Below are positions 2,572-58,600 of a stretch of DNA of 64,000 nt, piece by piece. The position numbers and the translations under genes were made by a program. Numbering within the stretch: the stretch's first letter is position 1; each line of letters begins with the position of its first letter. This DNA is from Haliotis cracherodii (lineage: Eukaryota): positions 55,242,001-55,306,000 of the forward strand of contig NW_027266286.1 in the NCBI RefSeq assembly GCF_022045235.1. Reading direction: 5' to 3'. The notes under the pieces are model-generated. The model saw only the letters and a program-made list of their open reading frames with translations, was not told the origin of the DNA and did not search any database.

Positions 2572-2621
2572 TTACAATCATGTGCCTGAGGGGTGGATCT
2601 CTTCAAACTGTAAGGGGAGGG

Positions 2622-3084: not shown

Positions 3085-3600
3085 AGGTGACTAAATTGTT
3101 TGCCTGTGACAGACCCGATTGTTTACACACCGCTGTCATTTTGTTGAAATATAGATGACTAAACGATGACTAAAGATGACTAACTGGTTTGCCTGTGACA
3201 GACCCGATTGTTAACACACCGCTGTCATTTTGTTGAAACATAGATGACTAAACGATGACTAAAGATGACTAACTGGTTTGCCTGTGACAGACACGATTGT
3301 TTACACACCGCTGTCATTTTGTTGAAACATAGATGACTAAATGATGACTAAATATGACTAACTGGTTTGCCTGTGACAGACACGATTGTTTACACACCGC
3401 TGTCATTTTGTTGAAACATAGATGACTAAATGATGACTAAAGATGACTAACTGGTTTGCCTGTGACAGACACGATTGTTTACACACCGCTGTCATTTTGT
3501 TGAAATATAGATGACTAAATGATGACTTAAGATGACTAACTGGTTTGCCTGTGACAGATCCGATTATTTACACACCGCTGTCATTTTGTTGAAATATAGA
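3085..3600. repeat. Minisatellite, 89-bp unit, ~6 copies
   Basis: tgcctgtgac recurs at 3101, 3190, 3279, 3368, 3457 and 3546. Confidence 0.95.
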
Positions 3601-3754
3601 GTTAGACGTGGAAGAAGAAACAGGCAAAACTGCTTTTCTCCAAAGAGCCGAGATATTGTCTTTGCGAAAAATGGAGAAGGAATAACTTAAAAGACCTAAC
3701 AGAAAACAACAACTTATTCTTGTAACAAATTAAAGTTAGATTGTATATCATCAG

Positions 3755-4094
3755 GAAGTCCTTTCCATGGATCCTGAATGGTATGAAGACTCTGATGTCG
3801 TCCTATCAGAGGATGAAGAAGACGAAGATGATGATGAAACGGACGACAGTTATCTATTAGCAGAAAGTCAGCCTGAAAGTGGAGAAGTGTTGAGTGGCAA
3901 AAGAGTCCCTGTGAAGGATGATGAAACCTCCGTCTGTGAGACACGCAGTGACTCTGACAGTGGAGAAGCTGCAGTGTCTTCAGACATTGTTCATACTCCC
4001 CCCCGGAATCTGCCAACAGATCAACTATGTGAAGGTCGCAGGTTGTTGACAGATGGTGGTAATGCTCTTGATGGAAGAGTCTTGCACCCTGGAA
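3755..4094 (+). CDS. Gene A first coding exon, acidic and probably disordered (MDPEWYEDSDVVLSEDEEDEDDDE...)
   Basis: catcag| acceptor at 3754, ATG at 3767, strong donor a|gtaagt at 4095, phase 1, coding-like composition. Confidence 0.65.
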
Positions 4095-7000
4095 GTAAGT
4101 ACTCACAATGTCGCCAGGACCATAAAACTTAATAAAATCACAATGTATTTGTGGCACCGTATGTATAACAAAAATCTTTAAACAGGTTATCTCAAAATTA
4201 GAGATAAGGGGCTTTTATTGGAATTTGGTGAAAGAGTCGAAAGATGATCAATTTTATGGTTTCTGCTGACAGCTTGAAATAATACAAAAGTAAAGTCTGT
4301 GCGTATTTTACAGAATTTAATTGCTCGTAATTAAGGGTGCATATAACACATGAGTGCGTATTATACACGAATAAATGTACACGAATTGTGTACATTAATC
4401 AGTTGGAAGGGTGCTAATTTGGATTGTTCACAAGCAAATATATTGGCAAATATGGCCGTGGGCGTTTATTAGAGCGGGGTGCTTATTACGTCGAATACGG
4501 TATTCGGAAATGTGATTCATAATACAGAAAATCACTTCAGTTCTTGACAAGATGGTCATGTGGCAGTTGTATCTTAATTGTAAATAATATACCAATCAAG
4601 TAATCACTGTTTTTTTTACTTCCTCAAGAAGAGGATTGTGGTGTGCAGATTCCAGAGGACACTGTCTTTTACACCAGGGGAAGGAATTCTCACAATGTTT
4701 TCAATCTCAGTGGAAATACTGGCTGCGTGCATGTTACATTCAAGGAAAACAAAGAACAGCAAAAAAAATTTGAAATTATAATCCACGTTGGTATTTCTTA
4801 AGATCAGGTACATCCAAATTGTTATTAAGGTTCGAATAGGCTATTGCACATCATTTTGTTTTCAAAATGGAATAAACTTTGGCACATGTGTAGTTAGTAG
4901 TGGGGTATGATCTATGTGTTCTGTTTTTGCGATATTTTACGTTTTGAAATATACACAAAGAAAAAGGTTAAGCACATCCCTATTTCTGAACCATGACAAA
5001 TGGCAAAAATCATGGCATAGGATGACTGACCACAGGAGCTGGGCAATACCAGTGTTATCGGATAGAACAATCATTTGACAACAAATAAAGAAGATATTGG
5101 TGAGTTGTGATTGAAATTTACTGTCAAAAACATCATGGTAACACAGGTACTGTTTTTATACCTCAGACAGTATGTCAAAAAAGTATGGAGCTTCAAGTAA
5201 ACGAGTTACGTTTGATGTTTCATGTGAAAATGTTCCTTAAAGTTTCTACTTGACATGACACGTGAAACAGATCAGTAACGGGTATAACCGCCACGTGCCC
5301 GGATGACGCATTCCACCCTGCGTCTCATTCCTTCAGTCAGATGTAGGATCTGTTGATGGGTCAACAACAAAAACATTGTAGATATCGCTTCAATGAAATT
5401 GCATTACAATACTTTGCAGACCACTGTGACGTCATTGGTTACCATGACGACACAATCAAGTGACATCACAAATGGCTCTGCTACTGAAGCTTATTACTGT
5501 CTACAAACTAAAAAAGTTGGAAGAATTATGTTTGATGATAAATAATATCTCACCCTCTTGTCTTTTGATAACAAATATATCAACACTCATTGGTAAAAGT
5601 GGGACAACTACTCGGCAAGCTTCAGAGTTTTTCCACACGAGTTGATATGTTTGATATCAAAAGACGAGGTGAGATTCTCTATTCGTTGACATGTATACTG
5701 TTGACATATCCAGGTGAACTTCCGTGCCGTAGCATTATTGTTAACATATCTATTTGATTTTATATATTTCTAAATCCTGTATTTGCCTTGTGAATTGTGT
5801 GTGTTTCTTCCTTTCGTTTGTGAGTGAGGGAACTCATCACAATCTGTGTACGAATCTGAGTATGTTAATGTTTGATACATGATTTCTTACTTATTATTCA
5901 GGAGGGGACACATCTGTATTGGACTCAGGTGAGTTGTGTTCATATGATACTATTATTATCCCCCGCCACGAAGTGGAAGGGGCATATAGGAATGGGTGCC
6001 GTCCGTCCGTCCTTCCGTCGGCCGTCCTTCCGTCCGTCCGTCAGTCCGTCCGTCACATTTCGTTTCCTGAGCAGATTTTGAAAACCGTACTATATTTCTT
6101 CATCAAACTTGGCACATAGATAGGTCTAGTGGTGAACTGGTGCCTTTTGATAGTTTGGGATTTTAAAAAAATGATTTTTTGAGCTTCCATGGCAACGACT
6201 TTGATTTAGACTGAAAATGGCGGTATTCCTCGTTTCCGGAGCAGATCATAAAAAACGTACTATATTTCTTCATCAAACTTGGCACATAGATAGGTCTAGT
6301 GGTGAACTGGTGCCTTTTGAAAGTTTGGGATTTTAAAAAAAGTTATATTTTTAGTTTCCATGGCAACGACTTTGATTTAGACTGAAAATGGCGGTAGTCC
6401 TCGTTTCCGGAGCAGATCTTGAAAACCATACCATATTTCTTCACCAAACTTGGCACATAGATAGGTCTAGTGGTGAACTGGTGCCTTTTGATAGTTTGGG
6501 ATTTAAAAAAAAGTTATTTTTCAAGTTTCCATGGCAACGACTTTGATTTAGACTGAAAATGGCGGTATTCCTCGTTTCCGGAGCAGATCTTGAAAACCGT
6601 ACTATATTTCTTCACCAAACTTGGCACATAGATAGATCTAGTGGTGAACTGGTTCCTTTTGATAGTTTGGGATTTAAAAAAATAATATTTTTCAAGTTTC
6701 TATGGCAACGACTTCGATTTAGACTGAAAATGGCGGTAGTCCTCGTTTCCGGAGCAGATCTTGAAAACCGTACCATATTTCTTCACCAAACTTGGCACAT
6801 AGATAGATCTAGTGGTGAACTGGTTCCTTTTGATAGTTTGGGATTTAAAAAAAAGTTATTTTTCAAGTTTCCATGGCAACGACTTTGATTTAGACTGAAA
6901 ATGGCGGTAGTCCTCGTTTCCGGAGCAGATCTTGAAAACCGTACCATTTTTCTTTACCAAACTTGGCACATAATGTCATCTCACAGTATTGAATACATTT

Positions 7001-10000
7001 CCTTTCTTGTCGGTAAGTTCTGCATTGCTTGAGTCAATGTTCCTCCAAAAGTGTCATGGACACAGTTGTTGCAATCTCTGACTAACTTCTTTCAGAAACA
7101 CAACTCATTACAAATACAACAGTGTAACTGATCTTAAACCTACTCAACTGTATAAACAATATATATTCTTGTCAACCATAGTCTGTACTTCACTTGCTTG
7201 ATAATGGTGTTAGAACCTACACCGAAACCATCGCTCCTAATTGTAATGAAGAAGATGTTCGTCCATATGTCTCATCCTTCCTCATTACAAATTCAGTAAC
7301 ATATTCTATCATATACTGCAGATGGAAAAACAACACCAGCAATCATTTTTATTTAGTGCTGCAATTAGGCCATTTACAAAAAGGCCCAGTGAACATTGTT
7401 CACAGGAGCTAATGCATTGCACACACCCGACATGTCATATTGGCGGGGGATGTGAGTATTTCATGCTTGTTATTACTCACCTGTGGGGATTCCGGGTAAG
7501 GATAAAGGTCCCCGGCAACCTATACCTGTTGTAAAAGGTGACTAATTAAATGGATCGAATTGTGACAATGTTCATTCTATGTCATCGCACCCAAATTGTG
7601 TGGATCAATCCTCATGCTGTGAATCTCTGCACTGTTTGGTCCAGATTTGATTATTTACAATTTAGCTGGGATATACAAATAATTACAGAGGTATATCATT
7701 GTTGAACACTTTGAATAAAATATTCTCTACGATAATAGATAATCTTGTTAAAAGGTGGATATCCACACAAACTTTGTTGTCAGAATGTCAAGCAGGTATC
7801 AGATAAAATTATTCTACTATTGAACAGGCCTTTACTCTTTATTTATTGATTCAAAAGCATCTCAGGAAAAAAGGTTGACATGTTTACTGTATATTTGTAG
7901 ATTCAAAACAAAGCCTTTGACTCTTTGGATTGACTGAAGTTATTGTATTTATTGCTTAAATCTGGTATTCACGGAATCGATTATTATATAATAGGTACAG
8001 AAATGTCTAACCATCTGTACGAGTTAACAGGTATGTAAGGACTGATATGGTTACAACAGAAATAACCGTTAGGTTGCATATTGTCACCTGTTCTGTTCCT
8101 ATTGTATGAAGAATTAGTTAAAGAAATAATCTCAAACGACAGTATGGGAATCTCTATTGACGACACCATTCATAATTTATCAATACTGTTGTTTGCCGAC
8201 AATGTTGCTATCTTCGCTGACTCAGTTGTATTGTTGCAGAAGATAATTTGTAGGTGAATATTGCTTTAAATGGGGTTCATCCATTAATGTAAGTAAGACG
8301 AAAGTAGTAGTATTAAATGGCGCGAAAATGTCAAGAACTGAGAAACACATGAGAAATGGACGATTAATGGAAGCGCCATAGAGGTGATCTCATACCATAA
8401 ATATCTAGGTATTATCTTTTCATGCAGAGACCCCAGACGATCCTGTGTAGAATATGTCTTCAACAACCGATGCTTGCTGTAAAATGTGACTAACGGAATC
8501 GGGTGGTCAGGCTCGCTGACTTGGTTGATGCATGTCATCGTATTCGATGCTCATGCTGTTAATCGAAGGATTGTCTGTTCCAGACTCGATTATTTACAGA
8601 CTGCTGTCATATAGCTGAAATATTGTAGAGTGAGGCGTTAAACAACAAACAAACAAATAAGCAAACTTTTCATGCAGAAATATGTTTACAAAGGTACATG
8701 TATGTGAGACACTAGCTATCCGAGCGGAGAAAGCCTTGCATGTTATCAAGCGATTTATTATCAAATATGTAGACTTGCCACTTGATTCAGCATTTAGATT
8801 ATTTTAAGGGGAAAATTCAGCCAATCCTATGATATGGTATAGGGCTTTAGCGTATGAATATTCATAATTTTTCAGAAAAAGTTCATACTAAATTCTGCAA
8901 GCTTATATTAAATATTAGTCACAAGGCATCGAACAAAGTTATATTGGGAGAATGTCGTCGCTTTCCTCTATGGTTTTATGCCCGTTCTAGAGTTATAGCC
9001 TACTGGAAAAGAGTTACTAGATATCCCTCTAAAAGATATTCTAAATGCTGTCATGACTTAATAAGAAATAAGATGATGTTGGAGATATTAACTGCGTTTC
9101 ATTTCTGCGAACTACCCTTTTCCAGTCTGGTTTTGGACGTGTCTGGATTAAGCAAGGTGTCGGAAATAAAGATCTGTTCTTGTAGCTGTTTAAAAAGAGA
9201 AGCAAGGGCATCTACCAACAATACTACGATATCAAAGTGTCGAAATCCGTAACTTACTATTCAGATTTCAAGCTTCAAATCACGCCAGAAAGATATCTGG
9301 TAGCCATAAAAAAACATTAAACTTGAGCCGAGTATTAACAAAATGTAGATGTAATTGTCATGATTTGCATATCAGAGCCCCCAGATTTCCCCAAACTCCT
9401 GAAACAGAAAATACTACATATTTTTACTGCAACAATGGTACAGAAGATGAATAGCATGTGTTAATGATTTGCCCAGAACCAGTGACATAAGAATAAAATA
9501 TTACCTAACTATTTTGTAATCAGGCCCTTTAATGAAAGGTTTCTGATACTAATACAGTCTGGTGACGATAGTCTCTCAATTAAGCTATCTCTATTACTGC
9601 ATCATATATTTCGCAAGAGAACACTCCGTTTGTTAGCAAATGTACAGCATATATTAAGGCTCATTCGTTGTAACATTTACGCCTTAATTTAGACATATTG
9701 TACCATTAGTCTTCTCGGCACATACATGAATAAACTGTCTGTCTGTCACAGTGTTACTGTGTACGATATATTATTCAATGATGGATTTTGCTTAATGACT
9801 ATAAAACGTGTTTTATGGATTTTATTTACAGGCTCAACATCTGTCGGTGTCATTGGTCCATTTAACAGTATTGTGGACAGGAACATTACCATGGGCATAA
9901 ACTATGGGTCTGTTGTACAATCTGGCGGTAAGTCTGTTTAGTCAAGAAGAATGTAGGCCATCGGCCCATACTCACAGTGGTGGTTCATTATAATATGTTT

Positions 10001-13000
10001 GCAAAATTGATATACTGTGGTTGACAAAATACACTGTGTACACTATATTGTTTATTATGTGGGAATTAAATACTAAACCTAACAAGAGTCTCTCAAATGG
10101 TTTGCATGGTTGATAAACATGGTGAAGTGTTTTATGGTCTTAACAGGAGAATATTAAAATTATGAATAGACAGTTGCAGTATATATGTTTTAGCTATATT
10201 TTTCTTGAGGAGGAAATAATATTTTTCAGATCCTAATAAAATTATCTTCTTCATAATTACTTTTGCAATGTATACACCACCTTTATTCTCTATATATGTA
10301 TGTTGTAATAACAACCAGTCTCAACCTTAGACGTCACGCCGAAGACCCGGGTTCGATTCCCGACATGGGTACAATGTGTGAAGCCCATTTCTGCTGTCCC
10401 CCGCCGTGATATTGCTGGAATATTGCTAAAAGCGGCGTAAAACCAAACTCACTCACTCACTCACTCAACCTTAGATGGCATGAACTGCTACGAAATCTTG
10501 CTAGTACCAGTCTGAATTGAGAAAGAATGATTTATTTTGAGTAACCTTACCTCATTGCATCTTCACTTTTCTCTACCTTTGAACTCGTCACGACATGGCT
10601 GAAATATTGCTGATTTGACGTAAAGCATAAACTGACTCACTCACTCTACTTTTGAAAACTTTGACAGTAATGACCCAAAGACGAAATTCGAAATTCTTTC
10701 AAATGTATTTTTGGGAAACAAAACACTTCCTTTTTTTAGTAACAAACTACATTTGTACATGGATTCATAACTTGAATCTTCCAATATACCTAACTGTAAC
10801 AAGTATTTTTTTTCAGGCTGATAAAAAGTTCCCAGTACATAAATAACTCGTTTTCAAACAAACGCTTTTACCCACAGTCGCAAAAAAGAATAATCTTCAT
10901 TTGAAATTAGTCATACGACTAACCAATGAAATATGATCATGGTATCTTTGTATACTGTTATAGCGTTTCAATTACAGACATTTTACATGTTTTTGTTCAG
11001 TTACACAAAGTGGTTACACTGAAAACAAAGCTGTTGTCGGAACAAACAATGGAACTATCAATAAGATTTGAGCTAGTTGTTGTAAGTTTTATCAACTGTC
11101 AAATACGAACACTGTGTACAATGAAACTCCTTTGTTATTTTTTGTATGTAGCCTTCATGCAGAAATGTGAAAATCCTGACTACTTGTGTTACGTGTACAT
11201 TAAAGCCTGTGTACATCACGGAGTTTGACAAGCATCCAATGATGCGAATCCGCCCGATGAATTAATCTTATTCCCAAATTAACCTGATCGCCGTGATCTA
11301 ACTGAAATGTGTTCAAAGCGGCATTTAACCCACACTGATTCCCTCACGAACAGAGTGTCAAATCTCTTTTCATTACTTAAATAAAGCGACAAAACCCCTT
11401 CGATATCCAATAGAAACCTCTGCACAAAGCAGAGTCAATTTTAACGATTACAACTATATCATGAGCATCTGTTTTTCAATCACTCTATAATAGTAATGAT
11501 ACCAGGTGTTCGCGAAAAGGTGAGCGTAGTAAGGAAGTATCAATTAGTTATTCTATTATATATCATGTCTCGTGGATTGAAATTGTGGCAATGCCTGTAT
11601 ATATCCTCCAGTTACCTCCTTGGTGCAAGTCTTTCAAGTGTTGTTCTCTGAGGGTCTTCTTATGTTATCATTACTATCAACGGTTTTACGATTCGTTTCA
11701 GAAAATTCGATTTTGAGCAGCCTTCAGGGTGAGATGTTTTTCTCTGGTCAGTTATGCTCTCTCACAAAAATGTATAGTGATTTTCTTTGTGATTGGTAAG
11801 ATTGTTTTGTAAAAGGGCTAAATTAACGTCCAATTTCAAAAGGGCCAAAACACCACATTATTCAGGAAGGGACAAATCTGTGTTGGACTCAGTCATAGGT
11901 GTTTTCATATGATGCTATTATTAATAATAACAGGTGGGGGTTACGGGTAAGGATAAATGTCCCCAGCAAAATATTCCTGGCGTGAAAGATGACTAAATGG
12001 ATGGAATGGTCAAGCTCGGTGACATTGTTTATTGCATGTCATCGTTCCCAAATTGTGAGGACCAGTCCTCATGCTGTCAGATACTGAATTGTCTGGTCCA
12101 CACTTAATTCTTTACACTATAGCTGGGACATTGCTGAACATGTCGTTAAAGAACAAATAAATCATACCAAGACATATTAGATAACATATTATACATATAT
12201 TGTATTTTTGTAATTCGTCTATTCATTTAATTTGATTTTTTTTCAGACCAGAGCAAACTCAGACTTTTCGATATTGACGAGCGAGTACTTGTTAAAACTG
12301 ATGCAATCAGTCAGTTCGAAAATCACTTGTCGCATCATGGAATGATTATAATCACTGGACGATCCGGTGAAGGGAAGACAATGGCATCTCTGTTGCTGTT
12401 GAAGGTTTTTTTATCGAAACATTCCCACACACCATTGATATTGACGGACCCTCGTCAGTGGGATCTTATTCCTGCATCTCGTAAATCGAAACAGAAGTAT
12501 GTTGTACTCATTGATGACATATTTGGCCAGTCAAATCTGGTACAGGATCTTCAGACCAGGTGGGAGCAAAAGTTTCCAATGATGATGCCCCTGGTAAAAG
12601 CAAGAATTGTGTCTCTTATTATAGTTTCCAGAACAAATATCTTTCAATATAGTAAATCCAATCTCACAATGTTCGAGAACTCTTCAGCAAGAGAATTTAC
12701 CTTGGGGTTTTCGAAAGAAGAGAAGCTTCTTGTTTTAGAAAATCATATCAAAACCTTTGCAAAAGACCTGAAGCTTACTGCAGAACAGAAGATTCGGATC
12801 ATACAAACAGACCAACTGTTAGGATTTCCACAATGTTGCTATCTGTACGCCACCAGCAAACCGAAACATTCTGAAAGTGTTGCTTTCTTTACTGAACCAA
12901 TGAGGTACTTGGCAGACTCTATAAAGAACATGCGTGACAAAGACCCTCTGTCATACCTAGTGTTATTACTCGTGATGTTTCATGACGGGGTATTGCCAAA

Positions 13001-16000
13001 AAAAGTTTTTCAACCTTTTGAAGGGGAACCTGTAGATATACCCTTTCTAGATAATATTGTTCAAATATGCTCAGTGAAACAAAAACCAACCCTTTGCATC
13101 ATGAAAGACGTAGCAGACAGTTTGTTGACAGTATACCTATCCTTGAATGAAAGTAACTATACATTCCTACATCGCTGCATTTATGATGTCATATTCCTTG
13201 AATTTTGCAAAGGCAGTTTGTCAAAGGGAATTCAAATGTGTGCCATAAGTACTCTGCTTGAATATGTCAGAACAAAACCTGCAGCTGACAAAAGGTATGG
13301 TAGTGATTGGATTGTAATAGTTTCAGAAGATATGTTTGGTATTCTTGCTGAGAGGATTACAAAAGAACTTTTGTCTGACAACTGTCAGTTGGTAACTGCT
13401 CATCCATGTTTGAAGGATACGGACTTCATTTCCTTTCTGACAAAATCCTGGGATGTGAAAAAAAAAGCACAAATAGCAACACACCCAGTAGAGAAACAGG
13501 TAGTCAGTGCAACCATATACTTCACGGAAGAAGCAGTGGACGTCCTGACCAACATATTCACCCAGGACACCCAGGAGGCCTTACCATTGCAGCAAACCAC
13601 TTTGAAGTTATTTGAATATGAATCCATCACTTCATATCTCACTATGGCTGGAGCATATAATTTGGCACTTCATTTGCTCAATTCACAAAAGGCAACGGAC
13701 GCTGACCATTATGAAAAGACAAGAAATAGTATGTTTGTCTGTTCATTTTATAAATCAAACTCTGAAAAGGTGGCACTTCTATTTGAACAAGATGCTGAGC
13801 TAACAACAGAATGCGTTATAGCGGCATGTGCAGCTGAGAAAGCACATGAAGTACTCTTTGATATGGCTCTTGGTTGCATGGAGGAAACTGATTCAGACAT
13901 GGACACCCTGCAAAATATGTTATCACTGTGCATAGAACGCCAACAATTCCACTTTTTCAAGGGATTAATCAGTATGATATTGGAACCAAAAAGAATGCAA
14001 CGGACATTTAGACAAATACTGTTGCAATTTCATAATGCAATTCCTACATTTCTTCTAACAACAAATGGACAAGAAGAACAGTTCAATTTAAAGGATATAT
14101 TGACAGTGCTGAATGATGTGGAAATGGGAAATGTTACCGATGACTGTGTTCTCCTATCTGCAGGATGTAATGATACCTTAGCTTTGAAGGCTGCTATTCA
14201 CCATGGAGGTAACGCCCACTGCACAAATAAATGTCAGCAGACACCTGTTCATCTTGCAGCAAAGTATGGATCTGAGCAAACTTTGGATTTCCTTTATGGG
14301 CTTTGTGGAAATGCCTCTCCTGGAGATATATATGGCTTTACACCTCTGCATTATGCGGCACTATCCTCGTTTCATAGTTCCGAAAAAGTGTTCACTGCAC
14401 TGAAGTGGAAGTCAAAGATAACTGACAAAACGCTAACTGGAAAGACAGCCCTGACACTGGCTGTAGAAGAAGAAAATATTGGCTCTATAGACAGGTTAAT
14501 ACTGTCAATCAAAGAACAGGGTTTACATTGCGAATATCCCATGCACGTTGCCGTGTCTGCTCTGATCTGTACACTACAAAGATGTCATACCACCAGAGAT
14601 GTTGCCTTAGTGCAACGCAACAAAGCTAAGATGATAGCAGTGTTGCAGCACCATGGATATTCGTTACTGGATGTAAATAATAAAAACACAACCTCTCTAC
14701 AAATGATTGTGAAATCAGGCACCGTACATTTATTGACATATTTACTAAAATTTTCCAATGTAAACAAATGTGTTATTCGAGATACGGAAGTACATGTTAC
14801 CATTGACAGTTTGAAGTCCCTTATTTACTGTGCTGCTGAACATGGTCATCTGAACGTTTTCACATATTTCTTTGAAAACATGTCATTCCAAACTGATAAC
14901 CACGTAGAGGACTATGTGAAGTCCGCTCTGTGTAATGCAGCTGAGAAAGGTCACCTCAACATTGTCCAGTTCTTTGTGGAGAAGGGTGAGGATATGAATA
15001 TAAAATATGAAAGGGGTGTGTCGCCTCTGTGCATTGCAGCTAAAAATGGTCATTTGAAGATTGTCAGATATTTTTATCTTAAAGGTGCTGATATGAGTAT
15101 TACGCCAACATATTGGGATCCACTTCTGATCAGTGCAGCTAACAATGGCTACACTGAGATTGTTAAGTGTTTGGTAGAGGAAGATGCTGATGTGGATGTG
15201 ACAGATGAAAATAGACACTCACCCCTGTGCTGTGCTGCTCGAAATGGCCACACTGACATTGTCCAGTACTTGTCAGAGACAGGTGCTGATGTGACTATTA
15301 CAGATGAATATGGGAACTCACATACCTGCATTACAGCTGAAAATAGAGAGAATAAAAGTGAGAAGTCTTTGGGAGAGGAAGATGTTGATGTGAATATCAT
15401 AGATACATATGGGATCGAACCCCTCTGGTGTGCGTTTGGAAATGGTCACATTGGAATTGTTCGATACTTGGTAGAGCATGGTGCCAGTGTGCATAATGCA
15501 GATGCATATGGGAACCCATTCCTGTGTAAGGCAGTTGACAGTGGAAACACTGAGATCGTCAGACTCCTTGTGGATAAAGGTGTTGATGTAAACACACCAG
15601 ATACATTCTGGACATCAGTTTTGCGGAGGGCAGCTGAATGTGGTAACACAGAGATGGTCAGAATCCTTGTGGAGAAAGGTGTTGACGTAAACATAACAGA
15701 CACATGCTGGACATCACTTCTGCAGATTGCAGCTGAACGTGGTGACACTGAGATGGTCAGGGTCCTTGTGGAAAAAGCTGTTGATGTAAATATACCAGAT
15801 ACATTCTGGACATCATTTTTGCAGAGGGAAGCTGAAGGTGGTAACACTGAGATGATCAGACTCCTTGTGGAGAAAGGTGTTGATGTAAACACACCAGATA
15901 CATTCTGGACATCAGTCTTGCGGAAGGCAGCTGAGCTCGTCAGACTCCTTGTTGGGAAAGGTGTTGATGTAAACACGACAGATACATTCTGGACATCAGT

Positions 16001-19000
16001 TTTGTGGAGGGCAGCTGAACGTGGTAACACTGAGATGGTCAGACTCCTTGTGGAGAAAGGTGTTGATGTAAACACGACAGATACATTCTGGACATCAGTT
16101 TTGCAGAGGGAAGCTGAAGGTGGTAACACTGAGATGGTCAGACTCTTGGTGGACAAAGGAGTTGATGTAAATATACCAGATACATTCTGGACATCAGTCT
16201 TGCGGAGGGCAACTGAGATCGTCAGACTCCTTGTGGGGAAAGGTGTTGATGTAAACACGACAGATACATTCTGGACATCAGTTTTGGAGAGGGCAGCTGA
16301 ACGTGGTAACACAGAGATGGTCAGACTCCTTGTGGAGAAAGGTGTTGATATAAATATACCAGATACATTCTGGACATCAGTTCTGCAGAGGGCAGCTGAA
16401 CGTGGTAACACCGAGATGGTCAGACTCCTTGTGGAGAAAGGTGTTGATGTAAACACACCAGATACATTCTGGACATCTGTTTTGGAGGTGAACGCTGAAC
16501 TTGGTAACACTGAGATGGTCAGGCTCCTTGAGGAGAAAAGTGTTGATGTAAATATACCAGATACATTCTGGACATCATGTTTGCAGAGGGCAGCTGAACG
16601 TGGTAACACAGAGATGGTCAGACTCCTTGTGGAGAAAGGTGTTGATGTAAATATACCAGATACATTCTGGACATCAATTTTGTGGAGGGCAGCTGAATGT
16701 GGTAACACAGAGATGGTCAGGCTCCTTGTAGAGAAAGGTGTTGATGTAAATATACCAGATACATTTTGGATATCAATTTTGTGGAGGGCAGCTGAACGTG
16801 GTAACACAGAGATGGTCAGGCTCCTTGTGGAGAAAGGTGTTGATGTAAATATACCAGATACATTTTGGACATCAATTTTGTGGAGGGCAGCTGAACGTGG
16901 TAACACAGAGATGGTCATGCTCCTTGTGGAGAAAGGTATTGATGTAAATATACCAGATACATTTTGGACATCAATTTGGTGGAGGGCAGCTGAACGTGGT
17001 AACACAGAGATGGTCAGGCTCCTTGTGGAGAAAGGTGTTGATGTAAACATAACAGATACATTCTGGACATCATTTTTGCGGAGGGCAGCTAAACGTGGTG
17101 ACACTGAGATGGTCAGAATCCTTGTGGAGAAAGGTGTTGATGTAAATATAGATACATCCTTGACATCAGTTTTGTGGAGGGAAGCTGAACGTGGTAACAC
17201 TGAGGTCGTCAGACTCCTTCTGGAGAATGGTATTGATGTAAACACACCAGATACATTGTGGACATCACTTCTGCAGAGGGCAGCTGAACATGGTGACACA
17301 GAGATGGTCAGACTCCTTGTGGAGAAAGATGTTGATGTAACTATACCAGATACATTCTGGATATCAGTTCTGCAGAGGGCAGCTGAACGTGGTAACACTG
17401 AGATGGTCAGACTCCTTGTGGAGAAAGATGTTGATGGGAATTTACCAGATATATTCTGGACATCATTTTTGCAGAGGGTAGCTGAACGTGGTAACACTGA
17501 GATGGTCAGACTCCTTGTGGAGAAACGTGTTGATGTAAATATACCAGATACATTCTGGACATCAGTTTTGGAGGTTGAAGCTGAAGATGGTAACACTGAG
17601 ATGGTCAGACTCCTTGTGGAGAAAGGTGTTGATGTAAATATACCAGATACATTCTGGACATCAGTTCTGCAGAGGGCAACCGAACGTGCTAACACCGAGA
17701 TGGTCAGACTCCTTGTGGAGAAAGGTGTTGATGTAAATATACCAGATACATTCTGGACATCAGTTCTGCAGAGGGCAACCGAACGTGCTAACACCGAGAT
17801 GGTCAGACTCCTTGTGGAGAAAGGTGATGATGTAAATATACCAGATACATTCTGGACATCAGTTCTGCAGAGGGCAGCTGAACGTGGTAACACAGAGATG
17901 GTCAGACTCCTTGTGGAGAAAGGTGTTGATGTCAACACACCAGATACATTCTGGACATCTGTTTTGGAGGTGAACGCTGAACTTGGTAACTCTGAAATAG
18001 TCAGGTTCCTTGTGGAGAAAGGTGTTGATGTAAATATACCATATACATTCTGGACATCATGTTTGCAGAGGGCAGCTGAACGTGGTAATGCAGAGATGGT
18101 CAGACTCCTTGTAGAGAAAGGTGTTGGTGTAAATATACCATATACATTCTGGACATCATGTTTGCAGAGGGCAGCGGAACGTGGTAATGCAGAGATGTTC
18201 AGACTCCTTGCGGAGTATGGTGTTGATGTAAATATACCAGATATATTCTGGACATCAATTTGGTGGAGGGCAGCTGAACGTGGTAACACTGAGATGGTCA
18301 GGCTCCTTGTGGAGAAAGGTGTTGATGTAAATATACCAGATACATTTTGGACATCAATTTTGTGGAGGGCAGCTGAACGTGGTAACACAGAGATGTTCAG
18401 GCTCTTTGTGGAGAAAGGTGTTGATGTAAACATAACAGATACATTCTGGACATCATTTTTGCGGAGGGCAGCTAAACGTGGTGACACTGAGATGGTCAGA
18501 ATCCTTGTGGAGAAAGGTGTTGATGTAAATATAGATACATCCTTGACATCAGTTTTGTGGAGGGAAGCTGAACGTGGTAACACTGAGGTCGTCAGACTCC
18601 TTCTGGAGAATGGTATTGATGTAAACACACCAGATACATTGTGGACATCACTTCTGCAGAGGGCAGCTGAACGTGGTGACACAGAGATGGTCAGACTCCT
18701 TGTGGAGAAAGATGTTGATGTAAATATACCAGATACATTCTGGACATCAGTTCTGCAGAGGGCAGCTGAACGTGGTATCACAGAGATGGTCAGACTCCTT
18801 GTGGAGAAAGGTGTTGATGTAAATATACCAGATACATTCTGGACATCAGTTTTGGAGGTTGAAGCTGAAGATGGTAACACTGAGATGGTCAGACTCCTTG
18901 TGGAGAAAGGTGTTGATGTAAATATAACAGATACATTCTGGACATCATGTTTGCAGAGGGCAGCTAAATGTGGTAACACAGAGATGGTCAGACTCCTTGT

Positions 19001-20603
19001 AGAGAAAGGTGTTGATGTAAACATAACAGATACATTCTGGACATCATGTTTGGAGGTTGAAGCTGAAGATGGTAACACTGAGATGGTCAGACTCCTTGTG
19101 GAGAAAGGTGTTGATGTAAACATAACAGATACATTCTGGACATCATGTTTGCAGAGGGCAGCTGAATGTGGTAACACAGAGATGGTCAGACTCCTTGTAG
19201 AGAAAGGTGTTGATGTAAACATAACAGATACATTCTGGACATCATGTTTGCAGAGTGCAGCTGAATGTGGTAACACTGAGATGGTCAGACTCCTTGTGGA
19301 GAAAGGTGTTGATGTAAATATAACAGATACATTCTGGACATCATGTTTGCACAGGGCAGCTAAATGTGGTAACACAGAGATGGTCAGACTCCTTGTGGAG
19401 AAAGGTGTTGATGTAAACATAACAGATACATTCTGGACATCATGTTTGCAGAGTGCAGCTGAACGTGGTAACACTGATATGGTCAGGCTCCTTGTGGAGA
19501 AATGTGTTGATGTGAATACACCAGAAACATTCTGGACATCTGTTTTGGAGGTTGAAGCTGAACGTGGTAACACAGAGATGGTCAGACTCTTTGTGGAGAA
19601 AGGTGTTGATGTTAACATAACAGATTCCTTCTGGACATCAGTTCTGCAGAGGGCAGATGAACGTGGTGACACAGAGATGGTCAGACTCCTTGTGGAGAAA
19701 GGTGTTGATGTAAACACACCAGATACATTCTGGACATTAGCTTTGCGGAGGGCAGCCGAATGCTGTAACACTGAGATGGTCAGACTCCTTGTGGAGAAAG
19801 GTGTTGATTTAAATATACCAGATACATTCTGGACATCAGTTCTGCAGAGGGCAGATGCACGTAGTAACACTGAGATGGTCAGACTCCTTGTGGAGAAAGG
19901 TGTTGATGTAAACATAACAGACACATTCTGGACATCAGCTCTGCAGAGGGCAGCTGAATGTGGTAACACTGAGATGGTCAGACTCCTTGTGGAGAAAGGT
20001 GTTGATGTAAACATAACAGATACATTCTGGACATCATCTTTGCAGAGGGCAGCTGAATGTGGTAACACTGAGATGGTCAGACTCCTTGTGGAGAAAGGTG
20101 TTGATGTAAATACAGGTATACATGGGCACACACCTCTTTGCAGTGCATCCGTTAATGGACACATTGATATTGTCCGTTTTCTTGTTGAGATTCGGTATGC
20201 CCTTGTCCTTCTGCGCACTGCAGCAGAAAATGACAACATTGAGATAGTCAAGTATCTTTTAGACAATGGGGTTTATCTTTACATAATGAAAACATATGGT
20301 AATTTCCCTCTTTGCACAGAAGTTGCAAATCTACACCTTCAGATTCTTCAGTATCTCGCTAAAAGATGTGTTAATGTGAATATGAAAGATAGTTGCTGGA
20401 ATATACTTGTGTGCACTGTAGTTGCCAATGGACACTCTGAGGTTTTCAAGTATGTTGTTGAGAGTGGTGCTGATGTTAATATGACAGATAGCCATGGCAA
20501 ATCACTAATGTGCATTGCAGCTGAAAAAGGTCATATTGAGATTGTCAAGTATCTTCATCAAAAAGGTGTTCCTGTGAATATCACAAAGGACAATTTCAGA
20601 TAA
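3767..20603 (+). CDS. NLR-like nSTAND3 NTPase-ankyrin repeat protein (gene A). Spliced model: 3767-4094, 4629-4790, 5902-5928, 9832-9927, 11702-11728, 12247-20603
   Basis: The terminal exon follows tttcag| at 12246 and is in frame with the 2758-aa ORF. Walker A GRSGEGKT (12357-12380), Walker B VVLIDDIFG, and IIVSR, GFPQCC, FFTEP and YTFLH motifs are typical of nSTAND3, followed by >55 ankyrin repeats. All upstream exons have AG/GT ends and phase-1 junctions and splice without stops. The terminal exon is near certain; the 5' exon chain is inferred. Confidence 0.85.
4629..4790 (+). CDS. Gene A putative 162-nt exon (KEDCGVQIPEDTVFYTRGRNSHNVFNLSGNTGCVHVTFKENKEQQKKFEIIIHV)
   Basis: Polypyrimidine tract with caag| acceptor, open frame in phase 1-1, weaker donor g|gtattt. 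Confidence 0.5.
5902..5928 (+). CDS. Gene A 27-nt microexon (GDTSVLDS)
   Basis: ttattcag|...cag|gtgagt, phase 1-1, frame-preserving. Confidence 0.6.
5953..7472 (+). mobile_element. DINE-1/HINE-like non-autonomous Helentron-type element with an internal 171-bp tandem array
   Basis: Subterminal inverted repeat atcccccgcca (5958) / tggcgggggat (7441), (GTCC)n microsatellite at 6000-6053, ~5.5 repeats of 171 bp (6060-6972). The element is absent from the duplicate copy of its flanks near 11920. Confidence 0.75.
7700..9748 (+). mobile_element. Decayed CR1/L2-group LINE, 3' part
   Basis: RT remnants (LLFADN at ~8187, KYLGI at ~8399, KFCKLILNIS...ILGECRRFPL) and an aataaa(ctgt)n tail at 9728-9748. 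Confidence 0.8.
8428..8665 (+). mobile_element. SINE family 2 (long central domain) inserted in the LINE
   Basis: cgggtggtcaggctcgctgacttggttg core, (AAAC)n tail, flanked by the direct repeat ttttcatgcaga (~8417 and ~8667). Confidence 0.85.
9832..9927 (+). CDS. Gene A 96-nt exon with RHIM/amyloid-like motif (STSVGVIGPFNSIVDRNITMGINYGSVVQSG)
   Basis: tttacag|...ggcg|gtaagt, phase 1-1. A paralogous exon with the same donor lies at 58516-58602 (-). Confidence 0.75.
10330..10466 (+). mobile_element. 5'-truncated SINE family 1
   Basis: Family-1 body with (ACTC)n tail, flanked by ctcaaccttaga repeats. Absent from the paralogous gene B intron near 58125. Confidence 0.9.
11702..11728 (+). CDS. Gene A 27-nt microexon (ENSILSSLQ)
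   Basis: tttcag|...cagg|gtgaga, phase 1-1. Length and both splice sites are conserved in the paralog at 51424-51450 (-). Confidence 0.75.
11866..11892 (+). pseudogene. Degenerate duplicate of the 5902-5928 microexon
   Basis: ttattcag|gaagggacaaatctgtgttggactca... matches 5894-5928, but the gtgag donor is replaced (cagtcatagg). Confidence 0.6.
15581..20115 (+). repeat. Coding tandem array of ~46 ankyrin units of 99 bp (VDVNIPDTFWTSVLQRAAERGNTEMVRLLVEKG)
   Basis: 99-bp period is directly visible. Two units lack 5 aa and two lack 1 aa. Confidence 0.97.
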
Positions 20604-45798: not shown

Positions 45799-48700
45799 TT
45801 AATTGTCTGTACTCATGTCAGAAAATCTTCCGATAAGTTCAATCAGTTCACGATCACTGGCACCAAGTTCATCAACATTGAAAAACCTCACGAGTTTCTC
45901 TGCAACAACCTGATGACCTCCACCACTAGCTGCATGTAAGCATGTACCTCCATAGTCATCCTTGCACAGGACATCAGCGCCACATGACAGCAAATGATCA
46001 ACAATATCTGTGTATCCACGGTAACAGGCTATCATTAATGGGGTGGCATTTTTCGGTCCACGCTTATTGATGTAAGATGGTTCATCACCTCCAACAGATG
46101 TAAGAAATTTCACAATGTTGTACCAACCATTGTTGCAGGCCACATATAGACAACCGCCGCCAAGATTGATATCTGCTCCCTTTTTTACTAGTTCCTCTAC
46201 AATGTCCATGTGCCCTTGTTGACAGGCAACCATGATTGGAGTCCAGCCATCTTTAGTGAGAGAATCGATGTTGTGATCAACGCCAAGACAAAGTTGAACC
46301 AAATGGAAAATACCAGATTTTGCTGCAACGTGCAGACTTGTTCTTCTTTTGTTGTCCACCATCTGTATGTCAGCGCCATTGTTCATCAAGAATGTTACCA
46401 TATCAGTATGACTGTTCTGAATAGCATACATTAAGGGTGTTTTCAATAGTGAATTTACACAATTCACAGTGGCTCCTGTTTGTAGAAGCCACTCAGCTGT
46501 TGGAACGTGCCCTTTCATTGCTGCCAAGTGTAGACATGAATTGTTCTCTTGATCGACGGCATCTAAAACAGCATGTCTACGTTTTAGTTCCTTTGCTGTT
46601 TCCAACTTCCCATGCCTGCAAGCACACATTAATGGCGTTCTTCTGAACTTACTACCAACATCTTCAATGTTCATTCCATGATCAAGAAGTATCTTTACAA
46701 TATTGGTTTCTCCCTTCATACATGCAAGATGTAGACATTTGTTTGTAACAGAGACAGAATCTGAGGTGTGTGCTCCATTCTCTAAGAGCAACTTCACGAT
46801 ATCTGAAGCGTAAATCAAAGGTGTTCTTCCATATTCACCACCTTGGTTCAAATCCATAGATTGTCTGAGCAGCAATTCAGCAACGTCAAGGCACCCTCCT
46901 CTGCACGTGAGATGAAGACAGTTGTCACTCTCTTCATCTAATAGTCCTGGAGCTGCTCCCCTGTCAAGTAGCATCTGGGCCAAATCAGCGTGTCCCCGAT
47001 AGCAAGCATGCATGAGAGCTGTCATACCATTTCCCCCAAGAACATCAATTGCAGTGTTGACAGGGTCAAGCAGTATACGCACACATTCTGTAAACCCATT
47101 GGCAGCAGCCACGTGGATTAACATATCTCTGTTGTCACCATATTCTCGAGGGCAGTCTTTGTCTGAGGGCACTGCAGGAGAGGCAATACTTTTTGCTGTA
47201 GAAAGAGATTGAAGATACGGTCTGGTTTTATCTTTGTTATGCAGGATATCCCCGACAGTTGTAGTGGCTATTTTGTCAAACCAAGAGGCAGATTGACCAA
47301 CGAGTTCTTTTAAGTAGCTCAAGTGCAAGTAGCTCAAGTGCCCATGCATGCAGCACCCAAGATAACATTCAAGGATGTCTGATTCACATAGCTGCATTCG
47401 TGGAATGTATTTGCAAAATGCACCTGTGTCCAAATATGATGACCAGAATAAGAATCCTCGATCCTTGTCACGTTGAAACGAAATATTATCTGCTGGAAAG
47501 TAGGAGAAGAGTTTGTCAACCAGGTCCTCAAAGGTAAAACATTGATGTGATAATGAGAGGGACAAATTACCATTAGTAATTTCTCTTCCAAGTCGTCTCA
47601 CAAGATTCTCCGTTAAATCATCTTCAATATTAATAAGGAACGTATTCATATGACCATCTTTTGAGATGCCTGTATTCTTGGTTTCTGAAATCCAAATTCT
47701 GTCAACTATGAACTTTAGACTGCAGTTCTCTAAGGCGACAACAGGGTGTAAATCAATCACAACGCATGCCACAACATCATGAATAGCTGGGTGACTAAAT
47801 TTTGCGCAATTGTTCTTTAATAGCACAATCAGTGTATCTTTTTCGTTTCTTGCAGATTTCCTGATTTCAGCAGGATTGTTAGCGTCTGGCATGATTTCCC
47901 CCATCTGTGATATCTTTTTGTCCAATCCGGAATCCCTTCGCCGTTGAGGATCTAAGAGATCATTTAAGTGTAGACCACCTTCATTGAGTATCATAAGCAG
48001 GAGAACTGCAGCCCTGTACCTTTCTTCATAGCGTGAAAAGATAACAGCTACTACATCATGCAAGTAGATCCACGGTTTCTTAAAAAAATCCAAGGCATTT
48101 CTTTCTAGAGAAGAATTCTTCACAAACAGTTGGCATATGTAAGGAAATCCCAGTGTCGTGTACTCCAGTCTTGCAACTGCTAACATTTCATCATGCGTTA
48201 GATGGAATTGCGATCCTTCCAAATGTTTTTTTAAAATCTGTTCTTTTTCAGTATCACCAAGAGGAGTAGATGTAGTCAGATTTATGACAGGTGACAGCAA
48301 TGAATTTTGGTATTTAATTACCATTTGAGAGACACTATTCCAGACGTTTGTCCGACTGGTCATAATGACCTTCAAAGGCATCACGTCCTTTTCCATTTCC
48401 AAAAGTTGGAAATGATGTTCTAAATATTCAAACATAGCGTCACAACTCTTCACAACATCGGCTGATGATGCAAAAGTACCAAACACATTATCACAAACCA
48501 GTAACGTTTGAGTGGGTGTGTTGTACTTAAAGTTCTCCCATTTATCTACACAAATCACGCGGTGTCCCTCTGCTCTGTATTTTCCTGAGATGTAGCGGGC
48601 CATTGTTGTTTTTCCTGATCCAGGCGAACCACAAATAAATACATGGTCCTTGGTTTGCAGGGCATTCCAGACTTCACGATAAGCCCCAGTTTCTATAAAT

Positions 48701-49549
48701 ATTGTCTCTGCGTATAGCTCCTCAGTTTCATCTGTGATTTAATAGAATGTATGTATTATTAATAAATTTCAGCCAGTAGCAAAGATGCTTCTACAATGGT
48801 ATTGAATTACCATTTTTATTAATGAGTGAGTCAGGTTTTACGCCGCTGTTAGCAATATTCAAGCAATATCACGGCGGGGGACACCACAAATGGACTTCAC
48901 ACATCGTACCCATGTCGGGAATCGAACCCGGGTCTTCGGCGTGACGAGCGAACGTTTTAACCACTAGGCTACCGGACCGCCCCTACCATTTTTATTACCT
49001 TCGAGGGCAAACATATCGGGGTTCATAAAAATCATAGGTGCTCTAGGGTCGCATCACGTCACCAGACAACGCTGTACTGTTTCCGTCATCTGGGCGGCAT
49101 TGTTGACATCATTCGAATATTATTATGACGTCAGATCGGAATGACGTTACTTTAGAAACGGCGTCATAGCTGAGGATTGTTGACGTCATTCGACAAATTG
49201 TGGTTTCGCTGCTGTTGCGACTTGCTGTTCTTGTAGGTACACACTACAATTCGTCTCTGTATCTAGACATCATCTTCGGTAATAAATAGAACATTATATT
49301 CGTGTTCAGGTCATACTATGTTTACGACACTCGTGCCTGAATTCCAGTATTGCTCTCGCTCGGAAATACCGTAATTTAGACACTAAACATAGTATGAAAT
49401 TAACACTCATATAATATCCTCTATATACATGTTTATAAATATATACCAGCTGACAAACATTCCTGTGCATCACTGACAATCATGGGTTATATTAAATATA
49501 CGCAAACAAAGGACGATCTTTCTACTGATTAATATATTGATGTCCATGA

Positions 49550-55600: not shown

Positions 55601-58600
55601 AGCGCCTCCTCTATGAGAAGGCTTTGATGATCTGCTTTGTAGTAAGAAGTCATGTGCCGATTTCCACGTACGCGCTTGCGTACTAGCGCTGCCCAACGAT
55701 GTATGCGCTGTACCAGTACAGGCCTGCTGCAAAATACGTTTGTGAATGACCTGTCTATAATTTGCAAAACTCGCTGGAGAGAGAGGTGCACAAATATTAC
55801 ATTTAAAGTTTGGAGAGCAAATCTGCGAGCATGCCAAACAACGTAGATGAGGATCCTTGGAATATTTTTTCCACGACAATTAGTACAACGCGCAAGCATA
55901 AGTTACGCAAAATAGAGAATTGTTGATGAGATTGAGTTGGAAGATTGTCATAGAATTAAACAATATTTTATCGGCAGATATTCTTACGAGTTGAAAGTGT
56001 ATACAAATATTGATACACGCAAACTCTATGTAACACAAAAGCTACTAGTATTTACAAACATATGAATATGTTATACATACCTAGCTGAGAATTGTAAACA
56101 ATTTGACTACCCTTGCAGGCAAACAATTGTAACACAAATCAAAATTGAGATATACAACGAACACGTGGAGGGAAAGAAAACAAACTACACACTAGTGAAA
56201 GTAATATGAAGAGAGTACATCTCCTATCGCAAATAAAATTTAGAATTATACTCTTCAAAAAAAGAAACTTGAAAAAGATGTAAAACCACTTTTTGACAAA
56301 TATCTAAAATAATTACATTAAATGAGAACCAAATAAGTCAAACAGAAAGATGATGTGTCTATAATTCGTGAAAACACATGCAAATCACATAAACGTAGTG
56401 TTTGGGGATCAATTTTACAGCTTCATCCAATCGCAACCAGCTGTAAAAAACATGCAGCACAGGATCCTGCATTTAGGCATGTAGGCCCCTCTGCTGAATG
56501 GGTATAAAAATCCACATCAACGACTGTTTATACAGTCCTTATAACGGCAGTAGAGGCGGTGACAGAATGCCAAGACTGAATGCAGCTCAACGGAACAACG
56601 CCATTAAGAGATTACAAGCTGGAGCAACTTAGCAAGAAGTGGCCAGGCACTTTGGTGTATCCAGACAGACAATCTCCGCACTGTGGACCCGATACAACAA
56701 CACCAACAGAGTTGACGACAGACCAAGGTCAGGAAGACCAAGGGTGACAACCCAAGCACAAGATCGATACATCTGGCTGCAACACCTCCGAGACCGCACT
56801 ACCACAGCCACGTCTACAACCACACAGATCCCTGGGGTACGCAGAATATCAGATCAAACGGTATGCAACAGGGACTTTTTGCACGAAGACCTGTTCGACG
56901 TCATGTGTTGACCCCACGTCATCTGGCGGACAGTCTGCTTTGGTGCCAACAGAGGGTTAGATGGGCACGTGCAAGGTGGAGAAATGTACTGTTTACTGAC
57001 GAGTCACGTTTCCTACACACACATGCTGATGGGCACGCACGTGTCTACAGACGTCAGGATGAAGGTTACGCCACCAACTGTGTGCAGCAGGTTGTCCCAT
57101 TTGGCGGTGGGAGTGTCATGGTATGGGCCGGAATTCATCACGGTGGTAGGACACCTCTCGTGCATGTGGCAGGTGCATTGACAGGTGTGCGTTACAGAGA
57201 CTTGATCCTACAGCCTTACGTTCTTCCTCACATCAACGTTCATGCCGGACAGTTCCAGCAGGACAACGCTCGACCGCATATTGCAAGTGTTTGTCAGGAC
57301 TTCTTACAGAACAACAACATCCAGACATTACCTTGGCCAGCCCGGTCACCAGATTTGTCGCAGAAGGAATCCACCGCCCCAAACACTTCCGATGCAAGTG
57401 GTGGGCACAACCGAAACTGACATTTTCTGTACCCCTGTGACATTAACTGTATCGTGTACGTGTGTCTGTCTAGGTGACACGATTAATGTTTTGAACATTG
57501 TGTACATTGATCTTCAAACATTGTTTCAATTATGGTTTCTGTGTCCTATTTTGAAACAATCGCATTATATTACATTTTGAAAATCAGTGTCAAGTTTCTT
57601 TTTTTGAAGAGTATATATCTGAAGCTGAAAGTCTAAAATTATCCAATCTATAGAGCTCCGCTGAGACATGTCCTTGCTGGATCGCGACAGACAGTGATCA
57701 GAGGAAGGTGACTTGTCATCAAGGTCACATGACAGCGCCGATGGTCCGTATTAAAGCAAGGGAGTGGAATGTGAAACAAATTTCTTCACCCAAAACCGTC
57801 GCGGTGCACTGTCTTTTTGTTGTCGAAAGGTAAGCAGTGAATGCATTAAGGAGTAATGCAGGATAAGTAAAAAATATTCCAATTAGGTTTATTGGAAGAT
57901 TCAACTTATGGAATCCATGTACATATGTAGTTACAAAACTGTTTTGTTTCCCCAAAAAGACATATGAAAGGATCGATTTCTCATTTCGTCTTTTGGTCAT
58001 TACTGTCAAAGTTTATAGGTATAGAAAAGTGAAGATACAATGAGGTCAGGTTACTCCAAATAAATCATTCTTTCTCAATTCAGACTGGCACTAGCAAGAT
58101 TTTGTAGCAGTTCATGCCATCAAAAGTTGAGACTGGTTGTTATTACAACATACATAGAGAATAAAGGTGGTGTATACATTGCAAAAATAATTATGAAGAA
58201 GATTAATACTATATTTTATTAGTATCTGAAAAATATAATTTTCTTCATAAAAAAATGTTAATATTCTCCTATCAACATCAAATGTATAAAGCCATCAAAC
58301 ACTCTGCCATGTTTGTCTACTATGCAAACCATTTGAGAGAGTCGTGTTAGTTTCAGGTTTAATAATACAGTACCTAGTGTGCATGGTTTATCTTGGCAAC
58401 CACAATATATCAATGTTTCAAACATATGATAATGAACCACCACTGTGAATATGGGCCGATGACCTACATTCTTCTTGACTAAAAAGACTTACAGACATGT
58501 GCTAAGCGAACTTACCGCCATATTGTACAACAGACCCATAGTTCATGCCAATGACAATGCTCTGGTTCACATTACTGTGAGATGCCCCACTGACATTGAG

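What the first reader, a model, noticed from the sequence alone, without database searches (positions are those of the whole stretch)
5890..12130. The amyloid-exon cassette in gene A lies between direct repeats, a possible footprint of module capture
Seen: 5890-5955 plus 7470-7670 (contiguous once the HINE insert is removed) is repeated at 11856-12130, including a dead copy of the 27-nt exon. The segment homologous to gene B (9750-11850) lies between the two copies, and homology to gene B stops where the second copy begins. Inference: gene A is a chimera that gained the 96-nt and 27-nt exon cassette by unequal or ectopic recombination between paralogs.
Basis: partly seen in the sequence, partly recalled or inferred. 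Interest (0 to 1): 0.7.

Follow-up and report, generated by a model that had tools for sequence, protein, structure and literature searches.

The report
Abalone immune sensor with borrowed exons
An abalone gene for a likely immune sensor carries two small exons, with their introns, that match a distant neighbouring sensor gene, and it likely gained them by DNA break repair, so short signalling motifs predicted to be amyloid-like can move between very different sensor bodies.

Summary
Gene A (nSTAND3-ankyrin) equals its paralog D, 7 kb beyond the window, plus a 4.2-kb insert. Half of the insert is an old LINE. The other half is a cassette about 86% identical, introns included, to genes B and C, whose NTPases are only 21% identical to A's. 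The repeats are not a fresh target duplication: copy 1 is 7.5% from D, copy 2 is 18.6%, and the older tract runs to about 12340. Neither cassette border has B-D homology. Most likely an older B-head/D-tail chimera donated the module by one-sided repair; the main rival is one old capture followed by loss in D. Contigs from other species bridge the 3' junction and splice exon Y to the A-type NTPase, skipping the second X exon (33 nt, in frame, weak splice sites). A red abalone model joins an A-type head, the cassette and a B-type NTPase. 'Amyloid' is untested: no RHIM or other Pfam hit. The scan noted a related exon array in another snail.

The parts
3767..4094 (+). Gene A exon a (ATG, acidic N-terminus)
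   Evidence: Sequence; same exon in NCBI models of D (P0001) and red abalone P0016
4629..4790 (+). Gene A exon b with the native A/D-clade N/G-rich motif; the donor used in D is lost here, so the 3' end at 4790 is inferred
5893..5959 (+). Repeat copy 1, left piece, with exon X1 (5902-5928, 27 nt, 6-bp deletion against D)
5960..7471 (.). HINE-like insert: subterminal inverted repeats, (CCGT)n and a 171-bp array; absent from D
7472..7674 (+). Repeat copy 1, right piece (intron plus SINE fragment), D-like to its last base
7675..9744 (+). 5'-truncated LINE with a (CTGT)n tail and a nested SINE at about 8426-8660; blunt 5' junction to copy 1
   Evidence: RVT_1 E 0.005, below the Pfam cut-off
9745..11851 (+). 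B/C-derived cassette, introns included (14.0% from C, 14.6% from B)
9832..9927 (+). 96-nt phase 1-1 exon, putative amyloid-like motif
   Evidence: spliced to Y in a B/C-type RNA? contig
10300..10570 (+). Tract identical to gene C over 139 aligned columns, split by a young SINE (10332-10463); likely recent A-C gene conversion; limits approximate
   Evidence: 0 of 5000 permutations reach this run
11702..11728 (+). Exon Y, 27 nt, phase 1-1 (alternative donor at 11746)
11852..11856 (+). 3' junction, 5 filler bases, no B/D homology
11857..12344 (+). Older D-family segment: repeat copy 2 (to 12131) with exon X2 (11866-11898, 33 nt), intron end and the first 90 or so bases of the NTPase exon; 16.6% from D
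12247..20603 (+). nSTAND3 NTPase plus ankyrin exon of gene A, open frame
58516..58602 (-). Gene B motif exon (87 nt); B exon 1 is 59063-58937
   Evidence: P0015
51424..51450 (-). Gene B exon Y; homology to A ends at 51300
45799..48731 (-). Gene B nSTAND3 plus ankyrin exon, 21% identical to A's NTPase region

Best explanation
Gene A is a D-type nSTAND3-ankyrin gene carrying a 4.2-kb insert with two in-frame exons from the distant B/C lineage, and it likely gained them in two steps, through an older chimeric donor gene and one-sided break repair. Step 1 (inferred, about 14-19% divergence ago): a B-type 5' half (intron with a LINE, 96-nt exon, exon Y) was fused without homology to a D-family exon X-SINE-NTPase tail at 11851|11857. 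Step 2 (inferred, about 10% ago or less): a D-like gene broke in its SINE, copied the donor from homology in the NTPase exon (about 12340) back into the LINE, and rejoined bluntly at 7674|7675. The direct repeats are then the recipient's own X-SINE (copy 1) and the donor's (copy 2). All small exons are phase 1-1, so the frame is kept (shown). The predicted protein has two different N/G-rich motifs in tandem ahead of the NTPase; they would act as amyloid-type signalling motifs (untested). The shared cassette now likely serves as a homology hub for further exchange between two NTPase clades.
For: D equals A without 7675-11856 (P0001). Tree of 71 NTPase rows: A+D (SH-aLRT 99) and B+C+P0016+P0017 (100) lie on opposite sides (quick tree). 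Cassette A-C 226/1620, A-B 202/1382, C-B 85/1536 differences. Direction: A's 96-nt peptide aligns in one register to 4 of 4 B-clade outgroups (10-21 of 1000 shuffles each); D's exon b matches 2 of 3 A/D-clade outgroups (0 of 1000). Copy 1-D 20/268, copy 2-D 50/269, copy 1-copy 2 55/268. Change point at 12344: 75/453 against 40/657, 0 of 500 permutations; within the exon 14/90 against 41/664, p 0.004. Six of six other LINE copies inspected continue 5' of 7675 with no shared bases at the join. LINE terminal branch about 8.5-9.5%, older than the A-D head split (107/1003 pairwise). One DNA? contig of organism C bridges cassette and tail (92 and 229 letters); one RNA? contig of organism B joins 11728 to the NTPase exon. 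P0016 has head a-b-X, cassette and a B-type body. Open 1050 codons: 9 of 2000 neutral simulations.
Against: The donor gene is not in this assembly: the 96-nt exon was found only in A, B and C (3 of 3 candidates). Copy 1-copy 2 distance exceeds cassette A-C distance (p 0.007), so clocks are loose. The 12344 change point mixes intron and exon sites and was chosen after the fact; strict synonymous third positions show little there (2/22 against 18/320). The splice and bridge evidence is one contig each, from other species, with run type guessed. The 5' junction was not bridged by any laid contig. No A protein came back from two protein searches that found D, and A lost D's exon b donor. The direction test is weak: C's and B's own peptides reach p<0.05 in only 1 of 8 comparisons with B-clade outgroups, and A's peptide also scores 13/1000 against A/D outgroup P0002, in another register. 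P0016 is a gene model whose DNA was not seen.
Confidence: 0.55

Rival explanations
1. One old capture event put the cassette into a D-type gene with a longer flanking duplication; A and D then duplicated, D lost the cassette by recombination between the copies, and a later deletion trimmed copy 1 to 7674.
For: LINE age, cassette divergence and copy divergence (non-SINE part 17/107) are all about 14-19% pairwise-equivalent. D is copy-1-like then A-like, as a pop-out would give. No lost donor gene is needed.
Against: Needs an unobserved extension of copy 1 beyond the 12340 equivalent, a crossover at its far end and a further deletion. D shows no copy-2-like patch inside the shared repeat.
Confidence: 0.25
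2. A D-type gene and an older B-head/D-tail chimera lay in tandem; a deletion fused the first one's head to the second one's LINE, and the tail from 12340 was later replaced from D.
For: A's head is further from D (107/1003) than the 3' flank is (139/2547; p 1.4e-7), so the tail has been exchanged or homogenised at least once.
Against: Needs an extra long replacement ending at 12340. A second change point in the exon that would separate the models was not significant (607 of 1000 permutations).
Confidence: 0.12
3. The direct repeats were the homologous substrate for unequal or ectopic crossover between A and B paralogs.
For: Repeats flank the cassette and B homology ends 5 bases before copy 2.
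Against: B and C lack the repeat; both borders are non-homologous; a LINE lies between copy 1 and the cassette; the copies differ in age.
Confidence: 0.04
4. The arrangement is an assembly error or a chance pairing of SINE copies.
For: About 60% of the repeat is a common SINE; the 5' junction was not bridged independently.
Confidence: 0.02

Closest known systems
Fungal NLR/STAND receptors with shuffled N-terminal modules and amyloid signalling motifs (NWD2/HET-s type; PMC13449251, passages read; PMC4262963, passages read)
   Same: Short N-terminal region, STAND NTPase, C-terminal repeats; N-terminal parts discordant with the NTPase tree; near-identical ankyrin repeats in A; ectopic conversion between family members
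   Different: Animal genes with an nSTAND3 domain, not NACHT or NB-ARC; the module moved as intron-bearing phase 1-1 exons and both DNA junctions are readable; no motif family match and no partner effector found
RHIM-NACHT-repeat protein of amphioxus, BF82280 (PMC4262963, passages read)
   Same: Invertebrate STAND sensor with a short motif where a death-fold domain usually sits; tandem motifs occur
   Different: No RHIM Pfam hit on the 96-nt peptide or on the B-type and D proteins scanned; the core is I/M-G-I/M-N-Y-G, not the recalled RHIM tetrad
Exon shuffling in brown algal NB-ARC-TPR and ROCO candidate receptors (PMC3341825, PMC11378527; search listing and abstract start only)
   Same: In-frame cassette exons moving among candidate immune receptors
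   Different: There the sensor repeats shuffle, per the titles, abstract starts and recall; here the N-terminal motif exon crosses between NTPase clades 21% identical
Chimeric genes by illegitimate recombination or one-sided repair (PMC1463047, listing only; one-sided invasion recalled)
   Same: Non-homologous junctions with short filler; one homologous and one blunt end
   Different: Repeated use of one cassette across species gives at least four architectures (D, B/C, A, P0016)

Membership tests
nSTAND3-ankyrin STAND receptor | nSTAND3 domain above the Pfam cut-off | tested here: met
   A 81.2 bits, B 73.8, cut-off 27.2; P0016, C and D also pass
nSTAND3-ankyrin STAND receptor | C-terminal ankyrin repeats | tested here: met
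nSTAND3-ankyrin STAND receptor | Immune sensing and oligomerisation | not testable with these tools
   Inferred from architecture only
RHIM or fungal amyloid signalling motif | Match to a curated motif family | tested here: not met
   0 Pfam families at E<=1 for the 31-aa peptide; none in P0016, P0018, P0001 at E<=0.05; no ESM Atlas look-alike
RHIM or fungal amyloid signalling motif | Short, uncharged, N/Q/S/G/T- and beta-residue-rich segment N-terminal to the NTPase | tested here: met
   52-58% NQSGT, 32-39% VILMFY, 0-6% charged in A, B and C
RHIM or fungal amyloid signalling motif | A partner effector with the same motif | tested here: inconclusive
   Peptide search found only A, B, C; the degenerate pattern gave 30 matches against 57 for its control, contexts not inspected
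RHIM or fungal amyloid signalling motif | Forms seeded amyloid fibrils | not testable with these tools
   Needs experiment
Chimeric gene by exon capture | Module and NTPase histories discordant | tested here: met
Chimeric gene by exon capture | Closest NTPase homolog lacks the module | tested here: met
   Gene D, 85% identical NTPase
Chimeric gene by exon capture | Captured exons spliced into the host transcript | tested here: inconclusive
   Y to A-type NTPase joint in one RNA? contig of another species; X to 96-nt only in model P0016; no RNA of this species listed
Unequal crossover between direct repeats (NAHR) | Donor and recipient share the repeat at both junctions | tested here: not met
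Target-site duplication | Both copies equally related to the empty allele | tested here: not met
   20/268 against 50/269 differences from D

The most novel reading that the evidence does not exclude
Abalone nSTAND3-ankyrin sensors mix and match amyloid-type signalling motifs as phase 1-1 exons. One captured cassette now links two NTPase clades on opposite strands, drives conversion and tail-swapping inversions between them, and rewires which death effector each sensor triggers: gene A stacks two motifs, and the red abalone model has lost the native motif and kept the borrowed one.
Probability: 0.3. Interest if true: 0.8.

Novelty: new variant of a known kind. Interest (0 to 1): 0.57.

Why it matters
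N-terminal shuffling in NLR-like receptors is usually inferred from discordant protein trees. Here the empty paralog, the donor lineage, both DNA junctions, relative ages and a further recombinant in a sister species are all visible, so the mechanism can be tested directly with abalone pangenomes. If the motif proves amyloid, this is a natural motif-swap experiment in mollusc innate immunity. I found no paper on these genes: 'nSTAND3'+'ankyrin' gave 2 fungal papers; the Haliotis/NLR/STAND/expansion/ankyrin search listed 12 of 51 papers, none naming Haliotis; searches listed nothing on them. Subscription journals are mostly outside the library.

Tried and rejected
RNA runs laid on 7000-13500 were swamped by SINE copies and gave no usable splice joints. 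No RNA holder was listed for this species; this is no evidence on expression. A second divergence tier at about 13500 looked plausible but failed the permutation test. DNA homology of the cassette or B head to the 44-48% relatives at C23:50.77-50.86 Mb: none beyond repeats. Pattern search for motif partners: below its control. ESM Atlas: no hit. The 33-nt X to NTPase joint in run X16 is read as D-type (no Y joint, D letter at 12293), so it does not show X2 use in A. Organism B's two DNA contigs end on either side of X2 and do not count as bridging. The careful tree did not finish and test_one_clade was not run; the quick tree is used. No fold or complex prediction was run for the motif, as it would not test amyloid formation. 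LINE-mediated transduction was rejected: introns are kept and the LINE tail lies upstream of the cassette. No supplementary files were read.
Full report
Setting. The window is G000:C23:55242001-55306000. Source labels on matching proteins name black abalone, Haliotis cracherodii. Gene A (+) has small exons and one long exon, 12247-20603, with nSTAND3 and ankyrin repeats; gene B (-) has the same domains. Genome searches and 200 kb of flanks show two more members: C (-), about 40 kb upstream and close to B, and D (+), 7 kb past the window end, with an NTPase region 85% identical to A's; B's and C's are 21%. The order C(-), A(+), B(-), D(+) looks like a duplicated head-to-head pair; B-C non-coding DNA differs by 4-5.5% and the A-D 3' flank by about 5.5%.

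Observation. Self-BLAST confirms both repeat pieces and the B-like stretch 9745-11851 between them. The insert at 5960-7471 has HINE-like ends and arrays and is absent from D. Between copy 1 and the cassette lies a LINE, 7675-9744: copies elsewhere extend further 5' and end in the same (CTGT)n tail, and one open piece hits RVT_1 weakly (E 0.005). The right 60% of the repeat is a common SINE, but it sits at the same place behind exon X in D, so the repeat is shared by descent.

Exons. A's model is a (3767-4094), b (4629-4790), X1 (27 nt), the 96-nt exon, Y (27 nt), optionally X2 (33 nt), then the NTPase exon; all joins are phase 1 and the model is open with or without X2. The NCBI model of D has a-b-X(33 nt)-NTPase; those of B and C have exon 1-motif exon-Y-NTPase. 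X2 keeps the ancestral length and a GT, but its donor is weaker and the junction lies 9 bases above it, removing most of its pyrimidine tract. A has lost the exon b donor that D uses, so its b end is inferred.

D is A without 7675-11856. In a quick ML tree of 71 NTPase rows (the 30 best loci from each of two searches plus 11 proteins; about 100-150 matches per search existed) A+D and B+C+P0016+P0017 are far apart, while A's cassette differs from C at 226 of 1620 and from B at 202 of 1382 aligned bases, mostly intron. A's 96-nt peptide aligns in one register to the pre-NTPase segment of 4 of 4 B-clade outgroups, and exon b to 2 of 3 A/D-clade outgroups. These scores are modest and the outgroups are related, but they point from B to A. 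So A is a chimera with its native motif and a borrowed one.

Mechanism. Copy 1 differs from D at 20 of 268 sites, copy 2 at 50 of 269; in the non-SINE part 5 of 107 and 17 of 109. The older tract continues to about 12344 (75/453 against 40/657; 0 of 500 permutations). At the 3' border B/C sequence stops, five filler bases follow, and D-family sequence starts, with no homology between the parents. At the 5' border D-like SINE sequence meets the LINE interior bluntly. The LINE's terminal branch, 8.5-9.5%, is older than the A-D head split (10.7% pairwise). The simplest reading is that LINE, cassette, X2 and NTPase start existed together in an older chimera and were copied into a D-like gene with one homologous and one blunt end (one-sided repair, mechanism recalled from general knowledge). 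That donor is absent from this assembly (searches scored 40 of 1423 and 107 of 251 candidates). The main rival is one old capture with a longer duplication, loss in D and later trimming in A; my data do not exclude it.

Other species. On 11535-12480: one DNA? contig of organism C aligns 11758-11849 then 12049-12278 at about 96%, so the cassette-tail fusion exists there with X2 deleted; one RNA? contig of organism B (depth 7.3, 29 letters on the short side) joins 11728 to the NTPase exon, skipping X2; a loose end in organism F shows the motif exon spliced to Y with B/C-type letters; a 547-letter contig in F joins a 33-nt X to the NTPase exon and is likely D-type. Run types are guesses and each item is a single contig. 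The red abalone model XP_046345060.2 (P0016) has an A-like exon a (96 of 108 residues against 85 of 100 for D), exon b lacking the 25 residues that hold the native motif, X, a B/C-type cassette and a B-type NTPase. It shows the head-cassette join in another species and a fourth architecture, if the model is right.

Continuing exchange and selection. A and C are identical over 139 aligned columns in the cassette intron, where B differs by about 3% (0 of 5000 permutations); recent conversion is the likely cause, a conserved element the alternative. In the 96-nt exon A and C differ at 17 of the first 62 and 0 of the last 34 bases; pN 0.21 against pS 0.06 on few sites. This hints at a fixed core and a diversifying flank, but conversion could give the same. 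A's first 1050 codons stay open in only 9 of 2000 neutral simulations. Against function, no A protein was returned by two searches that found D.

Amyloid label. The peptide is short, uncharged and N/G/S/V/I-rich and lies where fungal and amphioxus sensors carry amyloid motifs (PMC4262963 passages). It matches no Pfam family and no Atlas cluster, and no partner was found. It looks like such a motif but is not shown to be one.

Known context. N-terminal shuffling and ectopic conversion are described for fungal NLRs (PMC13449251 passages), and architecture turnover for marine invertebrate immune proteins (PMC8195603 passages). Seven literature searches listed nothing on abalone nSTAND3-ankyrin genes.

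Verdict. The chimera is real (about 0.95). The repeats are a by-product of joining two D-family segments of different age, not a crossover substrate. Two-step capture 0.55, single capture with loss in D 0.25. New variant of a known kind; interest 0.57.

Noticed in passing
window 11001-11071; gene C at about G000:C23:55197160-55197075 (-): A decayed second motif exon in the cassette: good acceptor, an N/G-rich peptide resembling the 96-nt motif, then a stop in both A and C; mostly missing in B. RNA in organism F skips it.
   Followed up: partly
window 15400-20110: About 47 near-identical 33-residue ankyrin repeats (99-bp period, about 86% alike); D's exon is about 1100 codons shorter. Resembles the highly conserved repeat arrays of fungal NLRs.
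   Followed up: no
P0016 (XP_046345060.2), residues 118-126: The red abalone model lacks the 25 residues of exon b holding the native motif while carrying the B-type motif, a possible motif replacement.
   Followed up: partly
window 52016-57869: A large nested insertion splits gene B's cassette intron; it is shared in part with C and holds a Tc1-like copy about 92% identical to 31644-33183. The rest looks like a tyrosine-recombinase retroelement (by eye, untested).
   Followed up: no
window 21564-25028 and L030: AT-rich tandem array of about 49 bp behind gene A, also behind D.
   Followed up: no
window 3085-3600: An 89-bp tandem array upstream of gene A, 5.8 copies, absent from D.
   Followed up: no
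G000 genome-wide: Large nSTAND3-ankyrin family: 99 and 154 matches from two NTPase searches, many in clusters; N-termini of annotated members often hold short N/V/I/T-rich segments.
   Followed up: partly
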